Assembly (NCBI GenBank): GCA_000004985.1
Contig: GG739138.1
DNA length: 7,435 bases
From: Naegleria gruberi
Taxonomy: Eukaryota
Reading direction: 5' to 3' (one strand)
The position numbers and the translations under genes were made by a program. The notes beneath the pieces are model-generated. The model was not told the origin of the DNA, searched no databases, and saw only the letters and a program-made list of their open reading frames with translations. Positions 1 through 7,435 of the stretch are shown here, in pieces; position 1 is the stretch's first letter; each line of letters begins with the position of its first letter.

Positions 1-453
1 ATGATTGCTGACATTGTCAGGGCAAAGGAAGAAGTAGAAGAGAGAAAACTTGCTGAGCAACGACAAATTGAACAAGCTCTCCAAAAGAAAAAAGAAGAAG
101 AACGAATTAAACAAGAAGAATTAAGGAAAGAACTGGCAAAAGTCAAAGTTCCAGTAACTAATAGAAAAAATCATTTTTCTAATAGAATGCAATCGAGAAA
201 GGAGCAATTTTTGAATCAATCGGAAGATAAGGAGAATTGTTCCCCTCAACAAGTTGAAACAAATCAACCAACAGTTTCGAAAAATGTTCAAAGTCTCGAT
301 GTTATGGAAACCATTTCGAATAAGGTTGTTCTAAGAGAAAGACCAAGAAGAAATACAACACCAATCATGATGAGACCACAAGCTCTATTAGATAATTCTA
401 TACCTGCATCTCCTCGTTCATTATTCCCTCGCCAAACACAACAAGTTTCATAA
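1..453 (+). CDS. Terminal part (or a complete 150-aa ORF) of a protein with a K/E/R-rich predicted coiled-coil (aa ~5-48) followed by an S/T/P/Q-rich disordered tail. The stop is TAA at 451-453. The true 5' end probably lies upstream of the window.
   Basis: ORF track frame +1 is open from the window edge to TAA 451-453. The heptad-like charged EEVEERKLAEQRQIEQALQKKKEEERIKQEELRKELAK is typical of coiled-coils. Arg is mostly AGA and the composition is protein-like. The ATG at position 1 may be a coincidence of the window cut. I could not place the product in a named family. Confidence 0.55.
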   Translation: MIADIVRAKEEVEERKLAEQRQIEQALQKKKEEERIKQEELRKELAKVKVPVTNRKNHFSNRMQSRKEQFLNQSEDKENCSPQQVETNQPTVSKNVQSLDVMETISNKVVLRERPRRNTTPIMMRPQALLDNSIPASPRSLFPRQTQQVS

Positions 454-702: not shown

Positions 703-898
703 TTATCTAGATGATGTTTTGGCGAGGTGAATGTAGTAATGGCTGGTGAGGAAGGAAGCAAAGGGAGAACTCTCCTCATGGTGGCTTCTCAAGGTAGCAT
801 GCTGAAGGTGGGAATACCAACCAATATACCTATTTAGCAGGGTGATGATGAATTCATGATGAGTAATTGTTGTTTGTTGTTTTTTTTTGTTGAATATT
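703..898 (-). CDS. Candidate C-terminal end of a minus-strand gene that enters the gap. The stop is TAA (plus-strand TTA at 703-705), convergent with the 1-453 gene.
   Basis: The minus frame is open for 65 codons from the gap edge down to the stop at 703 (...NKKKQQTTITHHEFIITLLNRYIGWYSHLQHATLRSHHEESSPFASFLTSHYYIHLAKTSSR*). At ~35% GC an open stretch this long by chance is only a few percent likely. The segment is also GC-richer than its flanks. There is no start codon and no homology that I can recognise. Confidence 0.2.
866..898 (+). repeat. GT-rich low-complexity tract and T9 run abutting the left gap edge (attgttgtttgttgtttttttttgttgaatatt).
   Basis: Direct reading. T run at 880-888. The minus strand reads as a CA-rich stretch encoding N/K/Q/T. 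Confidence 0.7.
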
Positions 899-3800
899 NN
901 NNNNNNNNNNNNNNNNNNNNNNNNNNNNNNNNNNNNNNNNNNNNNNNNNNNNNNNNNNNNNNNNNNNNNNNNNNNNNNNNNNNNNNNNNNNNNNNNNNNN
1001 NNNNNNNNNNNNNNNNNNNNNNNNNNNNNNNNNNNNNNNNNNNNNNNNNNNNNNNNNNNNNNNNNNNNNNNNNNNNNNNNNNNNNNNNNNNNNNNNNNNN
1101 NNNNNNNNNNNNNNNNNNNNNNNNNNNNNNNNNNNNNNNNNNNNNNNNNNNNNNNNNNNNNNNNNNNNNNNNNNNNNNNNNNNNNNNNNNNNNNNNNNNN
1201 NNNNNNNNNNNNNNNNNNNNNNNNNNNNNNNNNNNNNNNNNNNNNNNNNNNNNNNNNNNNNNNNNNNNNNNNNNNNNNNNNNNNNNNNNNNNNNNNNNNN
1301 NNNNNNNNNNNNNNNNNNNNNNNNNNNNNNNNNNNNNNNNNNNNNNNNNNNNNNNNNNNNNNNNNNNNNNNNNNNNNNNNNNNNNNNNNNNNNNNNNNNN
1401 NNNNNNNNNNNNNNNNNNNNNNNNNNNNNNNNNNNNNNNNNNNNNNNNNNNNNNNNNNNNNNNNNNNNNNNNNNNNNNNNNNNNNNNNNNNNNNNNNNNN
1501 NNNNNNNNNNNNNNNNNNNNNNNNNNNNNNNNNNNNNNNNNNNNNNNNNNNNNNNNNNNNNNNNNNNNNNNNNNNNNNNNNNNNNNNNNNNNNNNNNNNN
1601 NNNNNNNNNNNNNNNNNNNNNNNNNNNNNNNNNNNNNNNNNNNNNNNNNNNNNNNNNNNNNNNNNNNNNNNNNNNNNNNNNNNNNNNNNNNNNNNNNNNN
1701 NNNNNNNNNNNNNNNNNNNNNNNNNNNNNNNNNNNNNNNNNNNNNNNNNNNNNNNNNNNNNNNNNNNNNNNNNNNNNNNNNNNNNNNNNNNNNNNNNNNN
1801 NNNNNNNNNNNNNNNNNNNNNNNNNNNNNNNNNNNNNNNNNNNNNNNNNNNNNNNNNNNNNNNNNNNNNNNNNNNNNNNNNNNNNNNNNNNNNNNNNNNN
1901 NNNNNNNNNNNNNNNNNNNNNNNNNNNNNNNNNNNNNNNNNNNNNNNNNNNNNNNNNNNNNNNNNNNNNNNNNNNNNNNNNNNNNNNNNNNNNNNNNNNN
2001 NNNNNNNNNNNNNNNNNNNNNNNNNNNNNNNNNNNNNNNNNNNNNNNNNNNNNNNNNNNNNNNNNNNNNNNNNNNNNNNNNNNNNNNNNNNNNNNNNNNN
2101 NNNNNNNNNNNNNNNNNNNNNNNNNNNNNNNNNNNNNNNNNNNNNNNNNNNNNNNNNNNNNNNNNNNNNNNNNNNNNNNNNNNNNNNNNNNNNNNNNNNN
2201 NNNNNNNNNNNNNNNNNNNNNNNNNNNNNNNNNNNNNNNNNNNNNNNNNNNNNNNNNNNNNNNNNNNNNNNNNNNNNNNNNNNNNNNNNNNNNNNNNNNN
2301 NNNNNNNNNNNNNNNNNNNNNNNNNNNNNNNNNNNNNNNNNNNNNNNNNNNNNNNNNNNNNNNNNNNNNNNNNNNNNNNNNNNNNNNNNNNNNNNNNNNN
2401 NNNNNNNNNNNNNNNNNNNNNNNNNNNNNNNNNNNNNNNNNNNNNNNNNNNNNNNNNNNNNNNNNNNNNNNNNNNNNNNNNNNNNNNNNNNNNNNNNNNN
2501 NNNNNNNNNNNNNNNNNNNNNNNNNNNNNNNNNNNNNNNNNNNNNNNNNNNNNNNNNNNNNNNNNNNNNNNNNNNNNNNNNNNNNNNNNNNNNNNNNNNN
2601 NNNNNNNNNNNNNNNNNNNNNNNNNNNNNNNNNNNNNNNNNNNNNNNNNNNNNNNNNNNNNNNNNNNNNNNNNNNNNNNNNNNNNNNNNNNNNNNNNNNN
2701 NNNNNNNNNNNNNNNNNNNNNNNNNNNNNNNNNNNNNNNNNNNNNNNNNNNNNNNNNNNNNNNNNNNNNNNNNNNNNNNNNNNNNNNNNNNNNNNNNNNN
2801 NNNNNNNNNNNNNNNNNNNNNNNNNNNNNNNNNNNNNNNNNNNNNNNNNNNNNNNNNNNNNNNNNNNNNNNNNNNNNNNNNNNNNNNNNNNNNNNNNNNN
2901 NNNNNNNNNNNNNNNNNNNNNNNNNNNNNNNNNNNNNNNNNNNNNNNNNNNNNNNNNNNNNNNNNNNNNNNNNNNNNNNNNNNNNNNNNNNNNNNNNNNN
3001 NNNNNNNNNNNNNNNNNNNNNNNNNNNNNNNNNNNNNNNNNNNNNNNNNNNNNNNNNNNNNNNNNNNNNNNNNNNNNNNNNNNNNNNNNNNNNNNNNNNN
3101 NNNNNNNNNNNNNNNNNNNNNNNNNNNNNNNNNNNNNNNNNNNNNNNNNNNNNNNNNNNNNNNNNNNNNNNNNNNNNNNNNNNNNNNNNNNNNNNNNNNN
3201 NNNNNNNNNNNNNNNNNNNNNNNNNNNNNNNNNNNNNNNNNNNNNNNNNNNNNNNNNNNNNNNNNNNNNNNNNNNNNNNNNNNNNNNNNNNNNNNNNNNN
3301 NNNNNNNNNNNNNNNNNNNNNNNNNNNNNNNNNNNNNNNNNNNNNNNNNNNNNNNNNNNNNNNNNNNNNNNNNNNNNNNNNNNNNNNNNNNNNNNNNNNN
3401 NNNNNNNNNNNNNNNNNNNNNNNNNNNNNNNNNNNNNNNNNNNNNNNNNNNNNNNNNNNNNNNNNNNNNNNNNNNNNNNNNNNNNNNNNNNNNNNNNNNN
3501 NNNNNNNNNNNNNNNNNNNNNNNNNNNNNNNNNNNNNNNNNNNNNNNNNNNNNNNNNNNNNNNNNNNNNNNNNNNNNNNNNNNNNNNNNNNNNNNNNNNN
3601 NNNNNNNNNNNNNNNNNNNNNNNNNNNNNNNNNNNNNNNNNNNNNNNNNNNNNNNNNNNNNNNNNNNNNNNNNNNNNNNNNNNNNNNNNNNNNNNNNNNN
3701 NNNNNNNNNNNNNNNNNNNNNNNNNNNNNNNNNNNNNNNNNNNNNNNNNNNNNNNNNNNNNNNNNNNNNNNNNNNNNNNNNNNNNNNNNNNNNNNNNNNN

Positions 3801-6157
3801 NNNNNNNNNNNNNNNNNNNNNNNNNNNNNNNNNNNNNNNNNNNNNNNNNNNNNNNNNNNNNNNNNNNNNNNNNNNNNNNNNNNNNNNNNNNNNNNNNNNN
3901 NNNNNNNNNNNNNNNNNNNNNNNNNNNNNNNNNNNNNNNNNNNNNNNNNNNNNNNNNNNNNNNNNNNNNNNNNNNNNNNNNNNNNNNNNNNNNNNNNNNN
4001 NNNNNNNNNNNNNNNNNNNNNNNNNNNNNNNNNNNNNNNNNNNNNNNNNNNNNNNNNNNNNNNNNNNNNNNNNNNNNNNNNNNNNNNNNNNNNNNNNNNN
4101 NNNNNNNNNNNNNNNNNNNNNNNNNNNNNNNNNNNNNNNNNNNNNNNNNNNNNNNNNNNNNNNNNNNNNNNNNNNNNNNNNNNNNNNNNNNNNNNNNNNN
4201 NNNNNNNNNNNNNNNNNNNNNNNNNNNNNNNNNNNNNNNNNNNNNNNNNNNNNNNNNNNNNNNNNNNNNNNNNNNNNNNNNNNNNNNNNNNNNNNNNNNN
4301 NNNNNNNNNNNNNNNNNNNNNNNNNNNNNNNNNNNNNNNNNNNNNNNNNNNNNNNNNNNNNNNNNNNNNNNNNNNNNNNNNNNNNNNNNNNNNNNNNNNN
4401 NNNNNNNNNNNNNNNNNNNNNNNNNNNNNNNNNNNNNNNNNNNNNNNNNNNNNNNNNNNNNNNNNNNNNNNNNNNNNNNNNNNNNNNNNNNNNNNNNNNN
4501 NNNNNNNNNNNNNNNNNNNNNNNNNNNNNNNNNNNNNNNNNNNNNNNNNNNNNNNNNNNNNNNNNNNNNNNNNNNNNNNNNNNNNNNNNNNNNNNNNNNN
4601 NNNNNNNNNNNNNNNNNNNNNNNNNNNNNNNNNNNNNNNNNNNNNNNNNNNNNNNNNNNNNNNNNNNNNNNNNNNNNNNNNNNNNNNNNNNNNNNNNNNN
4701 NNNNNNNNNNNNNNNNNNNNNNNNNNNNNNNNNNNNNNNNNNNNNNNNNNNNNNNNNNNNNNNNNNNNNNNNNNNNNNNNNNNNNNNNNNNNNNNNNNNN
4801 NNNNNNNNNNNNNNNNNNNNNNNNNNNNNNNNNNNNNNNNNNNNNNNNNNNNNNNNNNNNNNNNNNNNNNNNNNNNNNNNNNNNNNNNNNNNNNNNNNNN
4901 NNNNNNNNNNNNNNNNNNNNNNNNNNNNNNNNNNNNNNNNNNNNNNNNNNNNNNNNNNNNNNNNNNNNNNNNNNNNNNNNNNNNNNNNNNNNNNNNNNNN
5001 NNNNNNNNNNNNNNNNNNNNNNNNNNNNNNNNNNNNNNNNNNNNNNNNNNNNNNNNNNNNNNNNNNNNNNNNNNNNNNNNNNNNNNNNNNNNNNNNNNNN
5101 NNNNNNNNNNNNNNNNNNNNNNNNNNNNNNNNNNNNNNNNNNNNNNNNNNNNNNNNNNNNNNNNNNNNNNNNNNNNNNNNNNNNNNNNNNNNNNNNNNNN
5201 NNNNNNNNNNNNNNNNNNNNNNNNNNNNNNNNNNNNNNNNNNNNNNNNNNNNNNNNNNNNNNNNNNNNNNNNNNNNNNNNNNNNNNNNNNNNNNNNNNNN
5301 NNNNNNNNNNNNNNNNNNNNNNNNNNNNNNNNNNNNNNNNNNNNNNNNNNNNNNNNNNNNNNNNNNNNNNNNNNNNNNNNNNNNNNNNNNNNNNNNNNNN
5401 NNNNNNNNNNNNNNNNNNNNNNNNNNNNNNNNNNNNNNNNNNNNNNNNNNNNNNNNNNNNNNNNNNNNNNNNNNNNNNNNNNNNNNNNNNNNNNNNNNNN
5501 NNNNNNNNNNNNNNNNNNNNNNNNNNNNNNNNNNNNNNNNNNNNNNNNNNNNNNNNNNNNNNNNNNNNNNNNNNNNNNNNNNNNNNNNNNNNNNNNNNNN
5601 NNNNNNNNNNNNNNNNNNNNNNNNNNNNNNNNNNNNNNNNNNNNNNNNNNNNNNNNNNNNNNNNNNNNNNNNNNNNNNNNNNNNNNNNNNNNNNNNNNNN
5701 NNNNNNNNNNNNNNNNNNNNNNNNNNNNNNNNNNNNNNNNNNNNNNNNNNNNNNNNNNNNNNNNNNNNNNNNNNNNNNNNNNNNNNNNNNNNNNNNNNNN
5801 NNNNNNNNNNNNNNNNNNNNNNNNNNNNNNNNNNNNNNNNNNNNNNNNNNNNNNNNNNNNNNNNNNNNNNNNNNNNNNNNNNNNNNNNNNNNNNNNNNNN
5901 NNNNNNNNNNNNNNNNNNNNNNNNNNNNNNNNNNNNNNNNNNNNNNNNNNNNNNNNNNNNNNNNNNNNNNNNNNNNNNNNNNNNNNNNNNNNNNNNNNNN
6001 NNNNNNNNNNNNNNNNNNNNNNNNNNNNNNNNNNNNNNNNNNNNNNNNNNNNNNNNNNNNNNNNNNNNNNNNNNNNNNNNNNNNNNNNNNNNNNNNNNNN
6101 NNNNNNNNNNNNNNNNNNNNNNNNNNNNNNNNNNNNNNNNNNNNNNNNNNNNNNNNN
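899..6157. other. Assembly gap: 5,259 consecutive N. The non-round length suggests a size-estimated scaffold gap.
   Basis: Uninterrupted n characters from 899 to 6157. Every ORF-track entry that crosses it (X runs) is an artifact of translating N. Confidence 0.97.
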
Positions 6158-6300
6158 TCTCGCATTTGAGAGAGAACTTGGTTGTTGCTGGTGGTGGATG
6201 TTATCTTGGACGACATTATTTGTTTTTGGTAGTGTGTTGTTGTTTTGTTTTGAGAATATTCGAAAGGATAAGATAATACTGGAGTAACTGTCCTGTTCAT
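6158..6300 (-). CDS. Candidate N-terminal 47 codons of a minus-strand gene running into the gap (MNRTVTPVLSYPFEYSQNKTTTHYQKQIMSSKITSTTSNNQVLSQMR...). There is an alternative, better-context start at 6216 (MSSKITSTTSNNQ...).
   Basis: ATG is the reverse complement of CAT at 6298-6300. Codons are yeast-preferred (TCT, GTT, ACT, CCA, CAA, AAC). The opposite plus-strand frame gives Cys/Val-rich junk. The first ATG has a poor -3 context (T), whereas the ATG at 6214-6216 has A at -3 and a following TCG (ATAATGTCG). The region downstream on the plus strand (6301-7261) looks like a promoter. Confidence 0.4.
6177..6252 (+). repeat. GT-rich low-complexity tract just inside the right gap edge (ttggttgttgctggtggtggatg...gtgtgttgttgttttgttttgag).
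   Basis: Direct reading. Strong G+T skew on the plus strand, which is CA-rich on the minus strand. It mirrors the composition at the left gap edge. Confidence 0.65.
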
Positions 6301-6413
6301 AAAAGGATCTTTCCTTTCTAATGCAAATGGTAAGAACAGTATTCTCTCTCTAACAAAAAAAATATAATCACTTCATCATTGCTGATTGTCTTTACCAATT
6401 CAATACGGAAAAT

Positions 6414-6455
6414 GTTGATATTCAATGTGCATCATCTTTGGATATACATCAATAG
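6414..6455 (+). repeat. Dispersed repeat copy A: GTTGATATTCAA ... TATACATCAATAG.
   Basis: gttgatattcaa at 6414-6425 and tatacatcaatag at 6443-6455. Both halves recur in copy B at 6754-6799 with the same order and orientation. Confidence 0.6.
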
Positions 6456-6586
6456 TATTGTCGTTTTAGTAATAGTGTGCACACTATATTAATGAAATAA
6501 ATTTCCTCAGTGCTTCTTTTATACCTTACTCAACAAATAAAGACATTTAATTTGATTACAGCGATTACTGGGTTTTTTTTCAATCA

Positions 6587-6668
6587 CCCCTTAAAAATCG
6601 TAGTTGTTAAAAGTGAATGCCCTTCAAAAACAAGTTTTTCTTCTCTTTACTGTGTTTTTAGTGCCCCT
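6587..6668 (+). promoter_or_regulatory. Two CCCCT (AGGGG on the minus strand) motifs matching the yeast stress-response element core.
   Basis: CCCCT at 6587-6591 and 6664-6668. The STRE core AGGGG/CCCCT is bound by Msn2/Msn4 in S. cerevisiae (established knowledge). A 5-mer match alone is weak. Confidence 0.2.
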
Positions 6669-6670
6669 AT

Positions 6671-6677
6671 TATATAA
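6671..6677. promoter_or_regulatory. TATA-box consensus TATATAA.
   Basis: tatataa at 6671-6677 is a near-perfect match to TATA(A/T)A(A/T). It lies ~370 bp from the minus-strand ATG and ~590 bp from the plus-strand ATG. Confidence 0.25.
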
Positions 6678-6753
6678 TTTTTTAATTCTTCTGATTTTTG
6701 AAAAAACGTAAAAATTGAAGAAACAGTTTGAGCTGACACTCTCTTGGGAATCA

Positions 6754-6799
6754 GTTGATATTCCAAAGAGTATACATCAATGAAATACATCCACAATAG
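6754..6799 (+). repeat. Dispersed repeat copy B: GTTGATATTCCAA ... TATACATCAATGAAATACATCCACAATAG.
   Basis: gttgatattccaa at 6754-6766 and tatacatcaat at 6771-6781 match copy A. It also contains the first copy of TCAATGAAATACATCCA (6777-6793). Confidence 0.6.
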
Positions 6800-6881
6800 T
6801 TTAGAAACATTTCAAACTACTTTCATAAAATTAATCAGAATGTTCAATGTCAACACTATATATCCTAGTGAACACTCCATC

Positions 6882-6900
6882 TCAATGAAAGTACATCCAA
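6882..6900 (+). repeat. Second copy of the TCAATGAAA(G)TACATCCA motif.
   Basis: tcaatgaaagtacatccaa at 6882-6900 matches tcaatgaaatacatccaca at 6777-6795: 17 of 18 positions match with one 1-nt indel, ~105 bp apart in the same orientation. Confidence 0.6.
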
Positions 6901-6904
6901 TCAT

Positions 6905-6930
6905 CATGTAAATTTACCATGTAAATTTAC
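6905..6930 (+). repeat. Perfect tandem duplication of the 13-bp unit CATGTAAATTTAC. Each unit contains the 10-bp palindrome GTAAATTTAC.
   Basis: catgtaaatttac at 6905-6917 and again at 6918-6930. GTAAATTTAC is its own reverse complement. The two palindromes sit 13 bp centre to centre. Confidence 0.85.
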
Positions 6931-7032
6931 CAGATACATTTAATTACATTACTATATATCTTGTATCAATTTCACATTGTTAGAATAGAATTCAATACGA
7001 TAATAATAACGAGGGTAATATGTATCCGTGTT

Positions 7033-7050
7033 ATCCAGCCAACGCTGGAT
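7033..7050. repeat. Inverted repeat ATCCAGC-caac-GCTGGAT (7-bp arms, 4-nt spacer).
   Basis: atccagc at 7033-7039 and gctggat at 7044-7050 are reverse complements. It belongs to the GGAT/ATCC-rich cluster. Confidence 0.6.
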
Positions 7051-7066
7051 TGAAAGGATTTTGTCA

Positions 7067-7095
7067 GATGGGATCCACTATAAGTGGATCCCATC
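7067..7095. repeat. Perfect 13-bp inverted repeat GATGGGATCCACT-ata-AGTGGATCCCATC (3-nt spacer). Each arm contains GGATCC.
   Basis: Positions 7067-7079 are the exact reverse complement of 7083-7095, and the arms cannot be extended (7066 and 7096 are both A). A 13/13 match is far beyond chance for 2.2 kb of readable sequence. Confidence 0.9.
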
Positions 7096-7107
7096 AAGAC
7101 AAAGCCA

Positions 7108-7133
7108 GGATAAAATGGATAATGGATGGATAA
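7108..7133 (+). promoter_or_regulatory. Three direct GATAA motifs within 25 bp (GGATAAaaTGGATAATGGATGGATAA), a candidate GATA-factor binding cluster.
   Basis: GATAA at 7109-7113, 7118-7122 and 7129-7133, all in the same orientation and ~130-155 bp upstream of the ATG at 7262. Fungal GATA factors (Gln3/Gat1/Dal80/Gzf3 in S. cerevisiae) bind GATAA/GATAAG and need two or more sites (established knowledge). The assignment here is inference. Confidence 0.35.
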
Positions 7134-7240
7134 TTCCGATATAATCAGCTACAAATCTAATAGTTATATTAAGGAGAGATGTTACTGAGAAATTATCTAT
7201 GAGAAATACTACAATATAAGAGGATGTAACTGTTCTAAAT

Positions 7241-7248
7241 TATATAAG
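7241..7248 (+). promoter_or_regulatory. TATA-like element TATATAAG immediately upstream of the ORF start.
   Basis: tatataag at 7241-7248 lies only 14 bp before the ATG at 7262. That is too close for a budding-yeast TSS downstream of the TATA but ahead of this ATG, so either the element is not a functional TATA or translation starts at a later Met. Confidence 0.2.
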
Positions 7249-7261
7249 AATTAAGAAAAAA

Positions 7262-7435
7262 ATGTTAGAAATGGATGATTTGATGGAACTATTGCAAAGC
7301 TCAATGGCTCTTGAGGATGATGAGCTTGAGAAAATCAAGTTGGCTCTTTATGAAAACGTTATAAGATTGTCAGAGCATTTGTTGGATGAAAATGAGGAGT
7401 CTTTGGAATTGATTGGCTTGAAGAGAAGAGTTGCA
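7262..7435 (+). CDS. 5' end of a plus-strand protein-coding gene that continues past the window. N-terminal 58 aa: MLEMDDLMELLQSSMALEDDELEKIKLALYENVIRLSEHLLDENEESLELIGLKRRVA. Acidic, helical and Leu-rich.
   Basis: ATG at 7262-7264 follows an A7 run (aaaaaaaATG, favourable yeast context). There is an in-frame upstream stop TAA at 7217-7219. The frame is open to the window end. Leu codons are mostly TTG and Arg is exclusively AGA (budding-yeast-like bias). The ORF track does not list it, presumably because its length is below the track cutoff. I could not place the product in a named family. Confidence 0.6.
   Translation, partial: MLEMDDLMELLQSSMALEDDELEKIKLALYENVIRLSEHLLDENEESLELIGLKRRVA

What the first reader, a model, noticed from the sequence alone, without database searches (positions are those of the whole stretch)
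7020..7135. Perfect 13-bp palindrome inside a dense cluster of 10 GGAT/ATCC cores, ~130-240 bp upstream of the 7262 gene
GATGGGATCCACT-ata-AGTGGATCCCATC (7067-7095) is a 13/13 inverted repeat, which is statistically extraordinary for this amount of sequence. It lies in a 115-bp island that is GC-richer than the surrounding promoter and contains 10 occurrences of the 4-mer GGAT or its complement, plus a second inverted repeat (7033-7050). The exact dyad symmetry with a 3-bp spacer fits a high-affinity site for a homodimeric DNA-binding protein (operator or UAS) or a structured nucleic acid element. I do not recognise it as a known yeast consensus.
Basis: seen in the sequence. Interest (0 to 1): 0.6.

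Follow-up and report, generated by a model that had tools for sequence, protein, structure and literature searches.

The report
Perfect palindrome in Naegleria promoter patch
A real, perfect 13+13-base palindrome sits in a patch rich in GGAT motifs about 170 bases upstream of an orphan gene of the amoeba Naegleria gruberi (not a yeast); it is probably an ordinary promoter inverted repeat made by a DNA-copying slip that may serve as a protein-binding site, but nothing available here could test that.

Summary
The arms 7067-7079 and 7083-7095 pair 13/13 with a 3-nt spacer. The 116-bp island holds 10 GGAT cores and is 40.5 % GC against 29 % around it. A second 7-bp hairpin lies at 7033-7050.

The window is an entire 7,435-bp scaffold of Naegleria gruberi, two short contigs joined by a 5,259-N gap. 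It duplicates a locus on a 380-kb scaffold. The 7262 ORF is the true N-terminus of an annotated 218-aa orphan protein, NAEGRDRAFT_69847.

The motif cluster survives removal of one arm of each inverted repeat (8 cores; 1 of 5,000 shuffles reaches that). No Rfam family, no tRNA, no TIR plus target-site duplication, and no related sequence in any reachable collection was found. No Naegleria DNA could be retrieved, so copy number and conservation are untested.

Best reading (about 0.38): a promoter-proximal cluster of TGGAT(A/C) motifs whose central dyad was made perfect by replication template switching, a candidate site for a dimeric factor. Rivals are a neutral mutational by-product (about 0.30) and a transposon relic (about 0.15). 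Interest is low to moderate.

The parts
7020..7141 (.). GC-richer island (about 40 % GC) holding 10 GGAT/ATCC cores in both orientations. TGGAT occurs 7 times, GGATAA 3 times and TTATCC once.
   Evidence: 12 raw or 10 merged cores; ATCCA 7 observed against 0.38 expected; GGATAA 4 against 0.09; 8 cores remain after de-duplication, reached by 1 of 5,000 shuffles
7067..7079 (.). Left arm of the perfect inverted repeat, GATGGGATCCACT. It contains the self-palindromic hexamer GGATCC (7071-7076).
   Evidence: (I14)
7080..7082 (.). 3-nt spacer ATA, the dyad centre at 7081
7083..7095 (.). Right arm, AGTGGATCCCATC, the exact reverse complement of the left arm. It contains GGATCC (7086-7091).
7060..7065 (.). 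TTTGTC, outer stem extension that pairs with 7098-7103 across a 1-nt/2-nt bulge
   Evidence: minimum-free-energy and centroid structures; chance about 0.009
7098..7103 (.). GACAAA, partner of 7060-7065
7033..7050 (.). Second small hairpin or dyad, ATCCAGC-caac-GCTGGAT (7-bp arms). Read as triplets it is TCC-N10-GGA; the main palindrome has TCC-N9-GGA.
7108..7134 (+). Direct, slippage-like run GGATAAAAT-GGATAAT-GGAT-GGATAAT, giving three GGATAA and four GGAT
   Evidence: below the Tandem Repeats Finder threshold
7023..7041 (.). Weak outer arm TATCCGTGTTATCCAGCCA, 15/19 complementary to 7123-7141. Only marginally above chance and mostly due to the opposed TTATCCA/TGGATAA motifs.
   Evidence: I4; shuffle p 0.03-0.06
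7123..7141 (.). Weak outer arm TGGATGGATAATTCCGATA, partner of 7023-7041
7262..7435 (+). First 58 codons of the downstream gene. They are identical to residues 1-58 of N. gruberi predicted protein EFC42172.1 / NAEGRDRAFT_69847 (218 aa), which has no Pfam domain and no homologue.

Best explanation
The island is a promoter-proximal patch of short TGGAT(A/C)-type motifs upstream of the orphan gene NAEGRDRAFT_69847 of Naegleria gruberi. Its centre is a 13+13 perfect inverted repeat that was most probably created or homogenised at the DNA level by replication template switching, in which one arm is copied from the other. The run at 7108-7134 was probably extended by slippage.

The most likely mode of action is as double-stranded DNA: a symmetric, multi-site platform for a sequence-specific factor that binds as a dimer. 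One plausible candidate is a member of the C6 zinc-cluster family, which is reported to dominate the Naegleria transcription-factor repertoire and generally reads paired trinucleotides. Here the pairs would be TCC-N9-GGA and TCC-N10-GGA, plus GGATAA half-sites. The factor would regulate the gene about 170 bp downstream.

Shown: the anatomy, its statistical excess, its position relative to a real annotated start codon, and the absence of RNA-family, tRNA and transposon-end signatures. Inferred: the template-switch origin, protein binding, the identity of the factor, and any effect on expression.
For: - The palindrome is perfect and beyond chance in the window, and it has a bulged 6-bp extension.
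- The motif cluster persists after one arm of each inverted repeat is removed (8 cores; 1 of 5,000 shuffles). The most enriched words are ATCCA/TGGAT, GGATA and GGATAA.
- The island is GC-richer than the spacer.
- It lies 127-242 bp upstream of an ATG confirmed as the annotated start of EFC42172.1.
- Another recent local copying event lies in the same spacer: an exact 13-bp tandem duplication at 6905-6930, beyond all 300 shuffles.
- Literature: template switching creates perfect reverse-complement repeats in a single event (PMC8794818). It expands inverted repeats in yeast promoters at high frequency, sometimes changing expression (PMC13100816). Perfect inverted repeats are over-represented in a yeast genome, with a 'trend toward perfection' (PMC2908449). 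[quoted passage not shown]
Against: - There are no binding, footprint, expression or conservation data.
- The downstream gene has no orthologue, and no Naegleria DNA could be fetched, so neither the other haplotype nor other promoters could be examined.
- Classical C6 sites use CGG triplets, and the palindrome has none.
- In the yeast study, most inverted-repeat expansions have no demonstrated effect: ERT1 was unchanged and only GRE2 changed. A perfect promoter inverted repeat alone is therefore weak evidence of function.
- Much of the core count can be produced by a few local duplications.
Confidence: 0.38

Rival explanations
1. A neutral mutational by-product. One or two template-switch events and some replication slippage in unconstrained AT-rich spacer DNA produced a perfect inverted repeat and a short GGAT-rich low-complexity patch. 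It has no selected function.
For: - A 26/26 perfect match with a 3-nt spacer is the signature of copying, not of base-by-base selection.
- The same spacer carries an exact 13-bp tandem duplication.
- The right side of the island is a slippage-like run.
- About 31 such inverted repeats are expected per genome even under a Markov null, and real genomes have more (PMC2908449).
- Yeast populations yielded 1,816 candidate template-switch inverted repeats with arms of at least 10 bp in the 1 kb upstream of about 4,268 genes, most with no known effect (PMC13100816).
Against: After the copied arms are removed, 8 GGAT cores in both orientations still remain in 116 bp (1 of 5,000 shuffles). The patch is GC-richer than its surroundings. 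It sits where regulatory sites are expected. Several independent copying events would have to be concentrated in 120 bp.
Confidence: 0.3
2. A relic of a mobile element: a small foldback or MITE-like element, or the subterminal repeat region of a larger transposon that lies in the unassembled gap.
For: - The island's composition is foreign to its surroundings.
- Weak outer arms 7023-7041 / 7123-7141 match 15/19.
- Repeated subterminal motifs are typical of transposase-binding regions (general knowledge).
- The locus is an unplaced mini-scaffold with a 5.3-kb gap.
- The spacer between two genes that are consecutive in the catalogue is 6.8 kb with no gene in it, long for this genome, which is 57.8 % coding.
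Against: - Dyad symmetry outside the core is only marginal (p 0.03-0.06) and no TIR plus target-site duplication is present.
- The strongest pairing is central, not terminal.
- There is no second copy and no similarity between the two gap flanks.
- No CTRR end follows the hairpin, which argues against a Helitron.
- No match in viral, metagenome, prokaryote-genome or plasmid collections beyond chance.
- N. gruberi repeat content is only 5.1 % (PMC9928731).
Confidence: 0.15
3. A structured RNA: a hairpin in an unannotated non-coding RNA, a small-RNA precursor, or a UTR or terminator element.
For: The fold is very stable on both strands (DNA -27.8 kcal/mol, z = -6.9; RNA minus strand -47.4 kcal/mol, z = -6.7).
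Against: - Equal folding on both strands is automatic for a palindrome.
- The stem has no G-U pairs and no strand asymmetry.
- No Rfam family reaches its threshold; the best hits are U7 at 14.8 bits against 34 and snoZ118 at 19.9 against 48.
- No tRNA was found.
- No terminator-like T-run was found.
- The stem of about 19 bp is short for a microRNA-type precursor.
Confidence: 0.05
4. A site acted on as DNA structure: a cruciform, or a target of a recombinase or resolvase, possibly linked to structural variation at this locus.
For: The 13-bp arms recall loxP and FRT (own knowledge). The locus was not merged with its allelic scaffold.
Against: The 3-bp spacer is too short for a tyrosine-recombinase crossover region of 6-8 bp (own knowledge). 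No recombinase gene is visible in the readable sequence. In yeast, perfect short-spacer inverted repeats are not in the cruciform-prone range (PMC2908449).
Confidence: 0.04
5. A cloning or assembly artefact, such as a polylinker-like fragment. GGGATCCACTA resembles a common BamHI-SpeI polylinker (own recollection).
For: The right contig is only 1,278 bp and the scaffold looks like a few end reads from a clone of about 7.4 kb. An 11-nt stretch resembles a common polylinker (memory only).
Against: There is no match to any plasmid record at E <= 1. The resemblance stops after 11 nt. The palindrome is embedded in Naegleria-like AT-rich sequence that runs directly into a verified N. gruberi gene.
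Confidence: 0.02

Closest known systems
Template-switch-generated or expanded perfect inverted repeats in yeast promoters (GRE2, ERT1; PMC13100816) and template-switch hairpins generally (PMC8794818, PMC5453318)
   Same: Perfect arms of at least 10 bp with a short spacer, within 1 kb upstream of a gene, overlapping short factor-type motifs, and lying next to other local copy events.
   Different: Here the ancestral or allelic imperfect state could not be seen, so the event itself is inferred and not demonstrated. The organism is a heterolobosean and not a yeast.
Zn2Cys6 (Gal4-type) zinc-cluster UAS elements. The dimeric factors read paired triplets at a fixed spacing. From my own knowledge, non-CGG examples are Lys14 (TCC-N3-GGA) and Neurospora QF (GGRTAA-N4-TTATCC).
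   Same: Dyad and direct arrangements of a trinucleotide (GGA/TCC) with similar spacings (TCC-N9-GGA and TCC-N10-GGA), together with GGATAA/TTATCC half-sites. The factor family is reported as dominant in Naegleria (PMC3537659).
   Different: There are no CGG/CCG pairs. There is no GGATAA-N4-TTATCC unit. The specificity of Naegleria C6 proteins is unknown. Thirteen-base perfect arms far exceed what such dimers contact.
Plant Myb-related (SHAQKYF-type) sites: MYBST1 core GGATA, I-box GATAA, and AMYBOX2 / TATCCA element (PMC12586236)
   Same: GGATA occurs 5 times and TATCCA 3 times (strand-collapsed) in 122 bp, as a homotypic cluster in a promoter.
   Different: Those factors and elements are defined in plants. 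I made no test for such factors in Naegleria. The central palindrome (GGGATCCACT) is not one of these motifs.
MITEs and foldback elements
   Same: Size of about 120 bp, inverted symmetry, and a composition unlike the flanks.
   Different: No terminal inverted repeats of convincing quality, no target-site duplication, and the pairing is strongest in the centre. Copy number is unknown.

Membership tests
MITE / foldback transposon | Terminal inverted repeats at the element ends | tested here: inconclusive
   The outer arms 7023-7041 / 7123-7141 match 15/19, but symmetry outside the core reaches only p 0.03-0.06 against shuffles.
MITE / foldback transposon | Target-site duplication flanking the inverted repeats | tested here: not met
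   A scan of all boundaries from 7000-7035 to 7125-7164 found only 2-3-nt direct repeats (CCG, AAT, TA) with 7/10 terminal matches, which is not distinguishable from chance in AT-rich DNA.
MITE / foldback transposon | Many copies at unrelated loci | not testable with these tools
   The N. gruberi assembly is not retrievable. There is no second copy in the 2,176 readable bases. There is nothing related in the viral, metagenome, prokaryote-genome or plasmid collections.
Helitron 3' end | Hairpin followed about 10-12 nt later by a CTRR terminus | tested here: not met
   No CTRR lies within about 20 nt of the hairpin on either strand (read).
Zn2Cys6 zinc-cluster UAS | Paired CGG/CCG triplets at a fixed spacing | tested here: not met
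   The palindrome has no CGG or CCG. The only CCGs, at 7026 and 7135, are 109 bp apart and in direct orientation. GGA/TCC pairs exist instead (TCC-N9-GGA, TCC-N10-GGA).
Zn2Cys6 zinc-cluster UAS | A cognate factor family is present in the organism | not tested
   Literature only: the C6 finger is stated to be the dominant specific transcription-factor family in Naegleria (PMC3537659).
Zn2Cys6 zinc-cluster UAS | Demonstrated binding or activation | not testable with these tools
   Needs EMSA, DAP-seq or a reporter assay.
GATA-factor site (WGATAR / HGATAR) | A, T or C immediately 5' of GATA | tested here: not met
   All four GATAA in the island are GGATAA, with G at position -1. The consensus is from my own knowledge.
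Myb-related GGATA / TATCCA element | Core GGATA or TATCCA present | tested here: met
   GGATA 5 times (0.20 expected) and TATCCA 3 times (0.09 expected) in 7020-7141. Motif definitions are from PMC12586236. A matching motif is not evidence that such a factor acts here.
Template-switch-derived inverted repeat | Perfect reverse-complement arms with a short spacer | tested here: met
   13/13 with a 3-nt spacer.
Template-switch-derived inverted repeat | An imperfect or shorter inverted repeat in an allele or outgroup at the same locus | not testable with these tools
   The allelic scaffold (379,849 bp) and other strains are not retrievable.
loxP/FRT-type tyrosine-recombinase site | About 13-bp inverted arms around a 6-8-bp asymmetric spacer | tested here: not met
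   The arms are 13 bp but the spacer is 3 bp. The site definition is from my own knowledge.
Known RNA families (Rfam 15) and tRNA | Covariance-model score at or above the gathering threshold, or an ARAGORN call | tested here: not met
   The best hits are far below threshold: U7 at 14.8 against 34 and snoZ118 at 19.9 against 48. There are 0 tRNA or tmRNA genes.

The most novel reading that the evidence does not exclude
The island is the first recognisable cis-element for the Naegleria-specific expansion of C6 zinc-cluster transcription factors. It would be a UAS built from GGA/TCC triplet pairs (TCC-N9/10-GGA) and GGATAA half-sites, which a template-switch event sharpened into a perfect dyad.
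Probability: 0.08. Interest if true: 0.55.

Novelty: new member of a known kind. Interest (0 to 1): 0.25.

Why it matters
Almost nothing is known about promoters or transcription-factor sites in Heterolobosea. A validated dyad element with a repeated core motif would give a first handle on gene regulation in Naegleria, and on the DNA specificity of its expanded C6 zinc-cluster family. If the palindrome turns out to be polymorphic between the two haplotypes, it would be a clean example of template switching shaping a protist promoter. As it stands, it is one unvalidated perfect inverted repeat upstream of an orphan gene, and real genomes contain many such repeats.

Tried and rejected
1. Yeast context: rejected. 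Gene A and gene C are N. gruberi predicted proteins.

2. The 1,865-aa 'gene' at 703-6300 on the minus strand, and the other long ORFs: artefacts of reading through 5,259 N.

3. Fetching the allelic or paralogous loci with the look-up of encoding contigs for P0001-P0004: none is on record.

4. Orthologous promoters: impossible. Gene C matches only itself among 1.84 billion representatives and 5.8 billion clusters.

5. Scans for the palindrome core:
- Viral contigs gave 0 hits.
- Metagenome contigs gave 9 hits, all 51-67 % GC prokaryote-like contigs with different loops and no shared flanks, so they are chance.
- Prokaryote genomes gave 0 hits.

6. Scans of viral contigs for two other island 20-mers: 0 hits, and one chance hit at a phage gene start.

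7. Vector or plasmid origin: no BLAST match at E <= 1.

8. Literature string search for the palindrome: 0 papers.

9. Rfam, tRNA and terminator scans: nothing significant.

10. LTR or TIR relationship between the two gap flanks, or between the left flank and the island: none; only TTG-type low complexity.

11. Long degenerate palindrome or MITE with a target-site duplication: marginal or absent.

12. A word-indexed search with the 58-aa gene C fragment returned nothing even though a 100 % identical protein exists. Negative results from that tool with short queries are therefore unreliable. For that reason I did not use it to look for translated copies of the island.

Full report
**What is in the window**

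The 7,435-bp window has only 2,176 readable bases, at 1-898 and 6158-7435. Positions 899-6157 are 5,259 N. The long 'ORFs' that cross the N run are artefacts.

The ORF at 1-453 is 100 % identical to a 150-aa 'predicted protein [Naegleria gruberi]' whose only contig is 7,435 bp long. The layout is two contigs of 898 and 1,278 bp around a sized gap. I infer that this reflects end reads from clones of about 7-8 kb that were never merged into the main assembly.

**The neighbouring genes**

A 99 % identical, full-length 198-aa copy of gene A (EFC42173.1, NAEGRDRAFT_69850) lies on a 379,849-bp scaffold. It differs from the window's copy at one residue, Cys against Tyr.

The ORF that starts at 7262 is real. 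An exhaustive HMMER search found one protein, EFC42172.1 / NAEGRDRAFT_69847 (218 aa), whose residues 1-58 are identical to the window's 58 codons. It lies on the same 379,849-bp scaffold. The two accessions are consecutive, so no catalogued gene lies between A and C. The window is thus a second, presumably allelic, copy of that locus.

Gene C has no Pfam domain and no homologue other than itself. It is an orphan, so no orthologous promoters exist to compare.

**Check of the observation**

All the stated features are present:
- The arms 7067-7079 and 7083-7095 match 13/13 with spacer ATA.
- The small hairpin ATCCAGC-caac-GCTGGAT is at 7033-7050.
- There are ten GGAT cores, or 12 if both strands of each GGATCC are counted.
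- GC is 40.5 % against 29.3 % for the intergenic region.

No shuffle of the right contig reaches a 13-bp perfect repeat (0 of 300). None reaches more than 6 GGAT/ATCC in 116 bp (0 of 2,000).

Three qualifications apply.
- Under an order-1 Markov model of this sequence, perfect inverted repeats of at least 13 bp with a spacer of at most 10 occur about 0.0016 times per 2,176 bp but about 31 times per 41-Mb genome. Real genomes hold more than random ones (PMC2908449). One such repeat turning up in a genome-wide scan is therefore expected.
- The stem extends, TTTGTC-a-[13]-ata-[13]-aa-GACAAA. Such an extension arises by chance in about 0.9 % of cases.
- The GGAT cores are not independent: copied arms and a slippage-like run at 7108-7134 account for many of them. 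Even so, after one arm of each inverted repeat is deleted, 8 cores remain in 116 bp, a count reached by 1 of 5,000 shuffles.

The most enriched words are ATCCA/TGGAT (7 against 0.38 expected), GGATA (5 against 0.20) and GGATAA (4 against 0.09). The patch is therefore a genuine motif island and not just a palindrome.

**What it is not**

- It matches no Rfam family. The best hits are far below the gathering scores.
- There is no tRNA and no terminator-like site.
- The strong fold z-scores are the same on both strands, as they must be for a palindrome. The stem has no G-U pairs or asymmetry that would point to selection at the RNA level.
- Dyad symmetry beyond the 19-bp bulged stem is marginal (p 0.03-0.06) and is driven by the opposed TTATCCA/TGGATAA motifs. 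No TIR plus target-site duplication is present.
- The gap flanks share no LTR- or TIR-like similarity with each other or with the island.
- No CTRR end follows the hairpin, so it is not a Helitron 3' end.
- The 3-bp spacer excludes a loxP/FRT-type site.
- All four GATAA are preceded by G, which does not fit the GATA-factor consensus (own knowledge).
- No plasmid or vector match was found.

**External searches**

The palindrome core gave no match in viral contigs or prokaryote genomes. It gave nine matches in metagenome contigs. All nine are GC-rich, have different loop sequences and share no flanks with the window, which is about the number chance predicts.

Two other island 20-mers were scanned against viral contigs. 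One gave nothing and the other gave a single chance hit in a phage coding region.

No paper contains the sequence string.

The decisive searches could not be run, because N. gruberi proteins are not indexed by position. These are the copy number in the N. gruberi assembly, the state of the allelic locus, and the sequence in other strains.

**Mechanism**

Twenty-six perfectly matched positions are more than any dimeric factor reads. That argues for a DNA-level copying origin for the dyad.

Replication template switching creates perfect reverse-complement repeats in a single event (PMC8794818). It homogenises or expands inverted repeats in yeast promoters at high frequency: 1,816 candidate events with arms of at least 10 bp in the 1 kb upstream of about 4,268 genes. 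Some of these change expression (GRE2) and some do not (ERT1) (PMC13100816). An exact 13-bp tandem duplication 150 bp away, at 6905-6930, shows that recent local copying has occurred in this spacer.

Origin does not settle function. Three features favour, without proving, a homotypic binding-site cluster:
- the residual motif excess
- the GC-richer composition
- the position, 127-242 bp upstream of a verified start codon

A literature lead is that the C6 (Gal4-type) finger is the dominant specific transcription-factor family in Naegleria (PMC3537659). From my own knowledge, such proteins usually bind as dimers to paired trinucleotides at a fixed spacing, and a few read GGA/TCC or GGATAA-type half-sites (Lys14, Neurospora QF). 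The island offers TCC-N9-GGA in the main palindrome, TCC-N10-GGA at 7033-7050, and GGATAA/TTATCC units. GGATA and TATCCA are also the cores of plant Myb-related elements (PMC12586236). These are resemblances and not tests. The classical CGG-pair criterion is not met.

**Verdict**

| Reading | Estimated probability |
|---|---|
| Promoter-proximal TGGAT(A/C) motif cluster whose centre was perfected by template switching; candidate site for a dimeric factor controlling NAEGRDRAFT_69847 | about 0.38 |
| Same origin, no function | about 0.30 |
| Transposon relic, favoured somewhat by the odd 6.8-kb gene-free, gap-containing spacer but not by the anatomy | about 0.15 |
| RNA hairpin | about 0.05 |
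| DNA-structure or recombination site | about 0.04 |
| Artefact | about 0.02 |

This is a new instance of a known kind of feature. Interest is low to moderate until the allelic and genome-wide comparisons are made.

Noticed in passing
window 899-6157: A run of 5,259 N joins an 898-bp contig and a 1,278-bp contig, and the whole window is one unplaced N. gruberi scaffold. All ORFs longer than 1,700 aa in the ORF list are artefacts of the N run. Both gap edges are G+T-rich TTG-type low complexity (867-898 and 6176-6252).
   Followed up: partly
window 1-453 and 7262-7435: The window duplicates a locus on a 379,849-bp scaffold. Gene A differs from EFC42173.1 by one residue (Cys against Tyr in ...DKEN[C/Y]SPQQ...). 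Gene C is 58/58 identical to EFC42172.1. The accessions are consecutive, but the JGI model numbers (69847, 69850) skip two, and the A-C spacer is about 6.8 kb with no catalogued gene. This may indicate dropped models, possibly repeat-related, in the gap.
   Followed up: partly
window 6905-6930: An exact tandem duplication, CATGTAAATTTAC twice (13 bp). It is longer than any tandem match in 300 shuffles and is evidence of recent slippage or duplication in the same spacer.
   Followed up: yes
window 6472-6487: A second perfect palindrome, ATAGTGTG|CACACTAT (8+8, no spacer). Shuffles of the region commonly give longest inverted-repeat arms of 7-8 bp, so this one is not significant by itself.
   Followed up: partly
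window 6397-6560 vs 6747-6999: Collinear weak direct repeats (6407 to 6747, 6443 to 6771, 6473 to 6866, 6541 to 6934; offsets 328-393 bp) suggest an old, decayed tandem duplication within the spacer.
   Followed up: no
window 7215-7220 and 7242-7249: TATA-like strings (TATAAG, TATATAAG) lie 13-47 bp upstream of the ATG at 7262. The palindrome centre itself reads CTATAAG. Also, 7076-7089 and 7212-7225 match 12/14 (CACTATAAGTGGAT / CAATATAAGAGGAT).
   Followed up: no
gene A family (P0003): A 55 %-identical paralogue of gene A lies on a third N. gruberi scaffold (707,703 bp). Whether gene C or the island was duplicated along with it could not be checked.
   Followed up: no
tool behaviour, vs 31: The word-indexed protein search returned 'no candidate' for the 58-aa gene C fragment, although a protein with a 100 % identical N-terminus is in the collection. 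Negative results from that tool for short queries are unreliable.
   Followed up: yes
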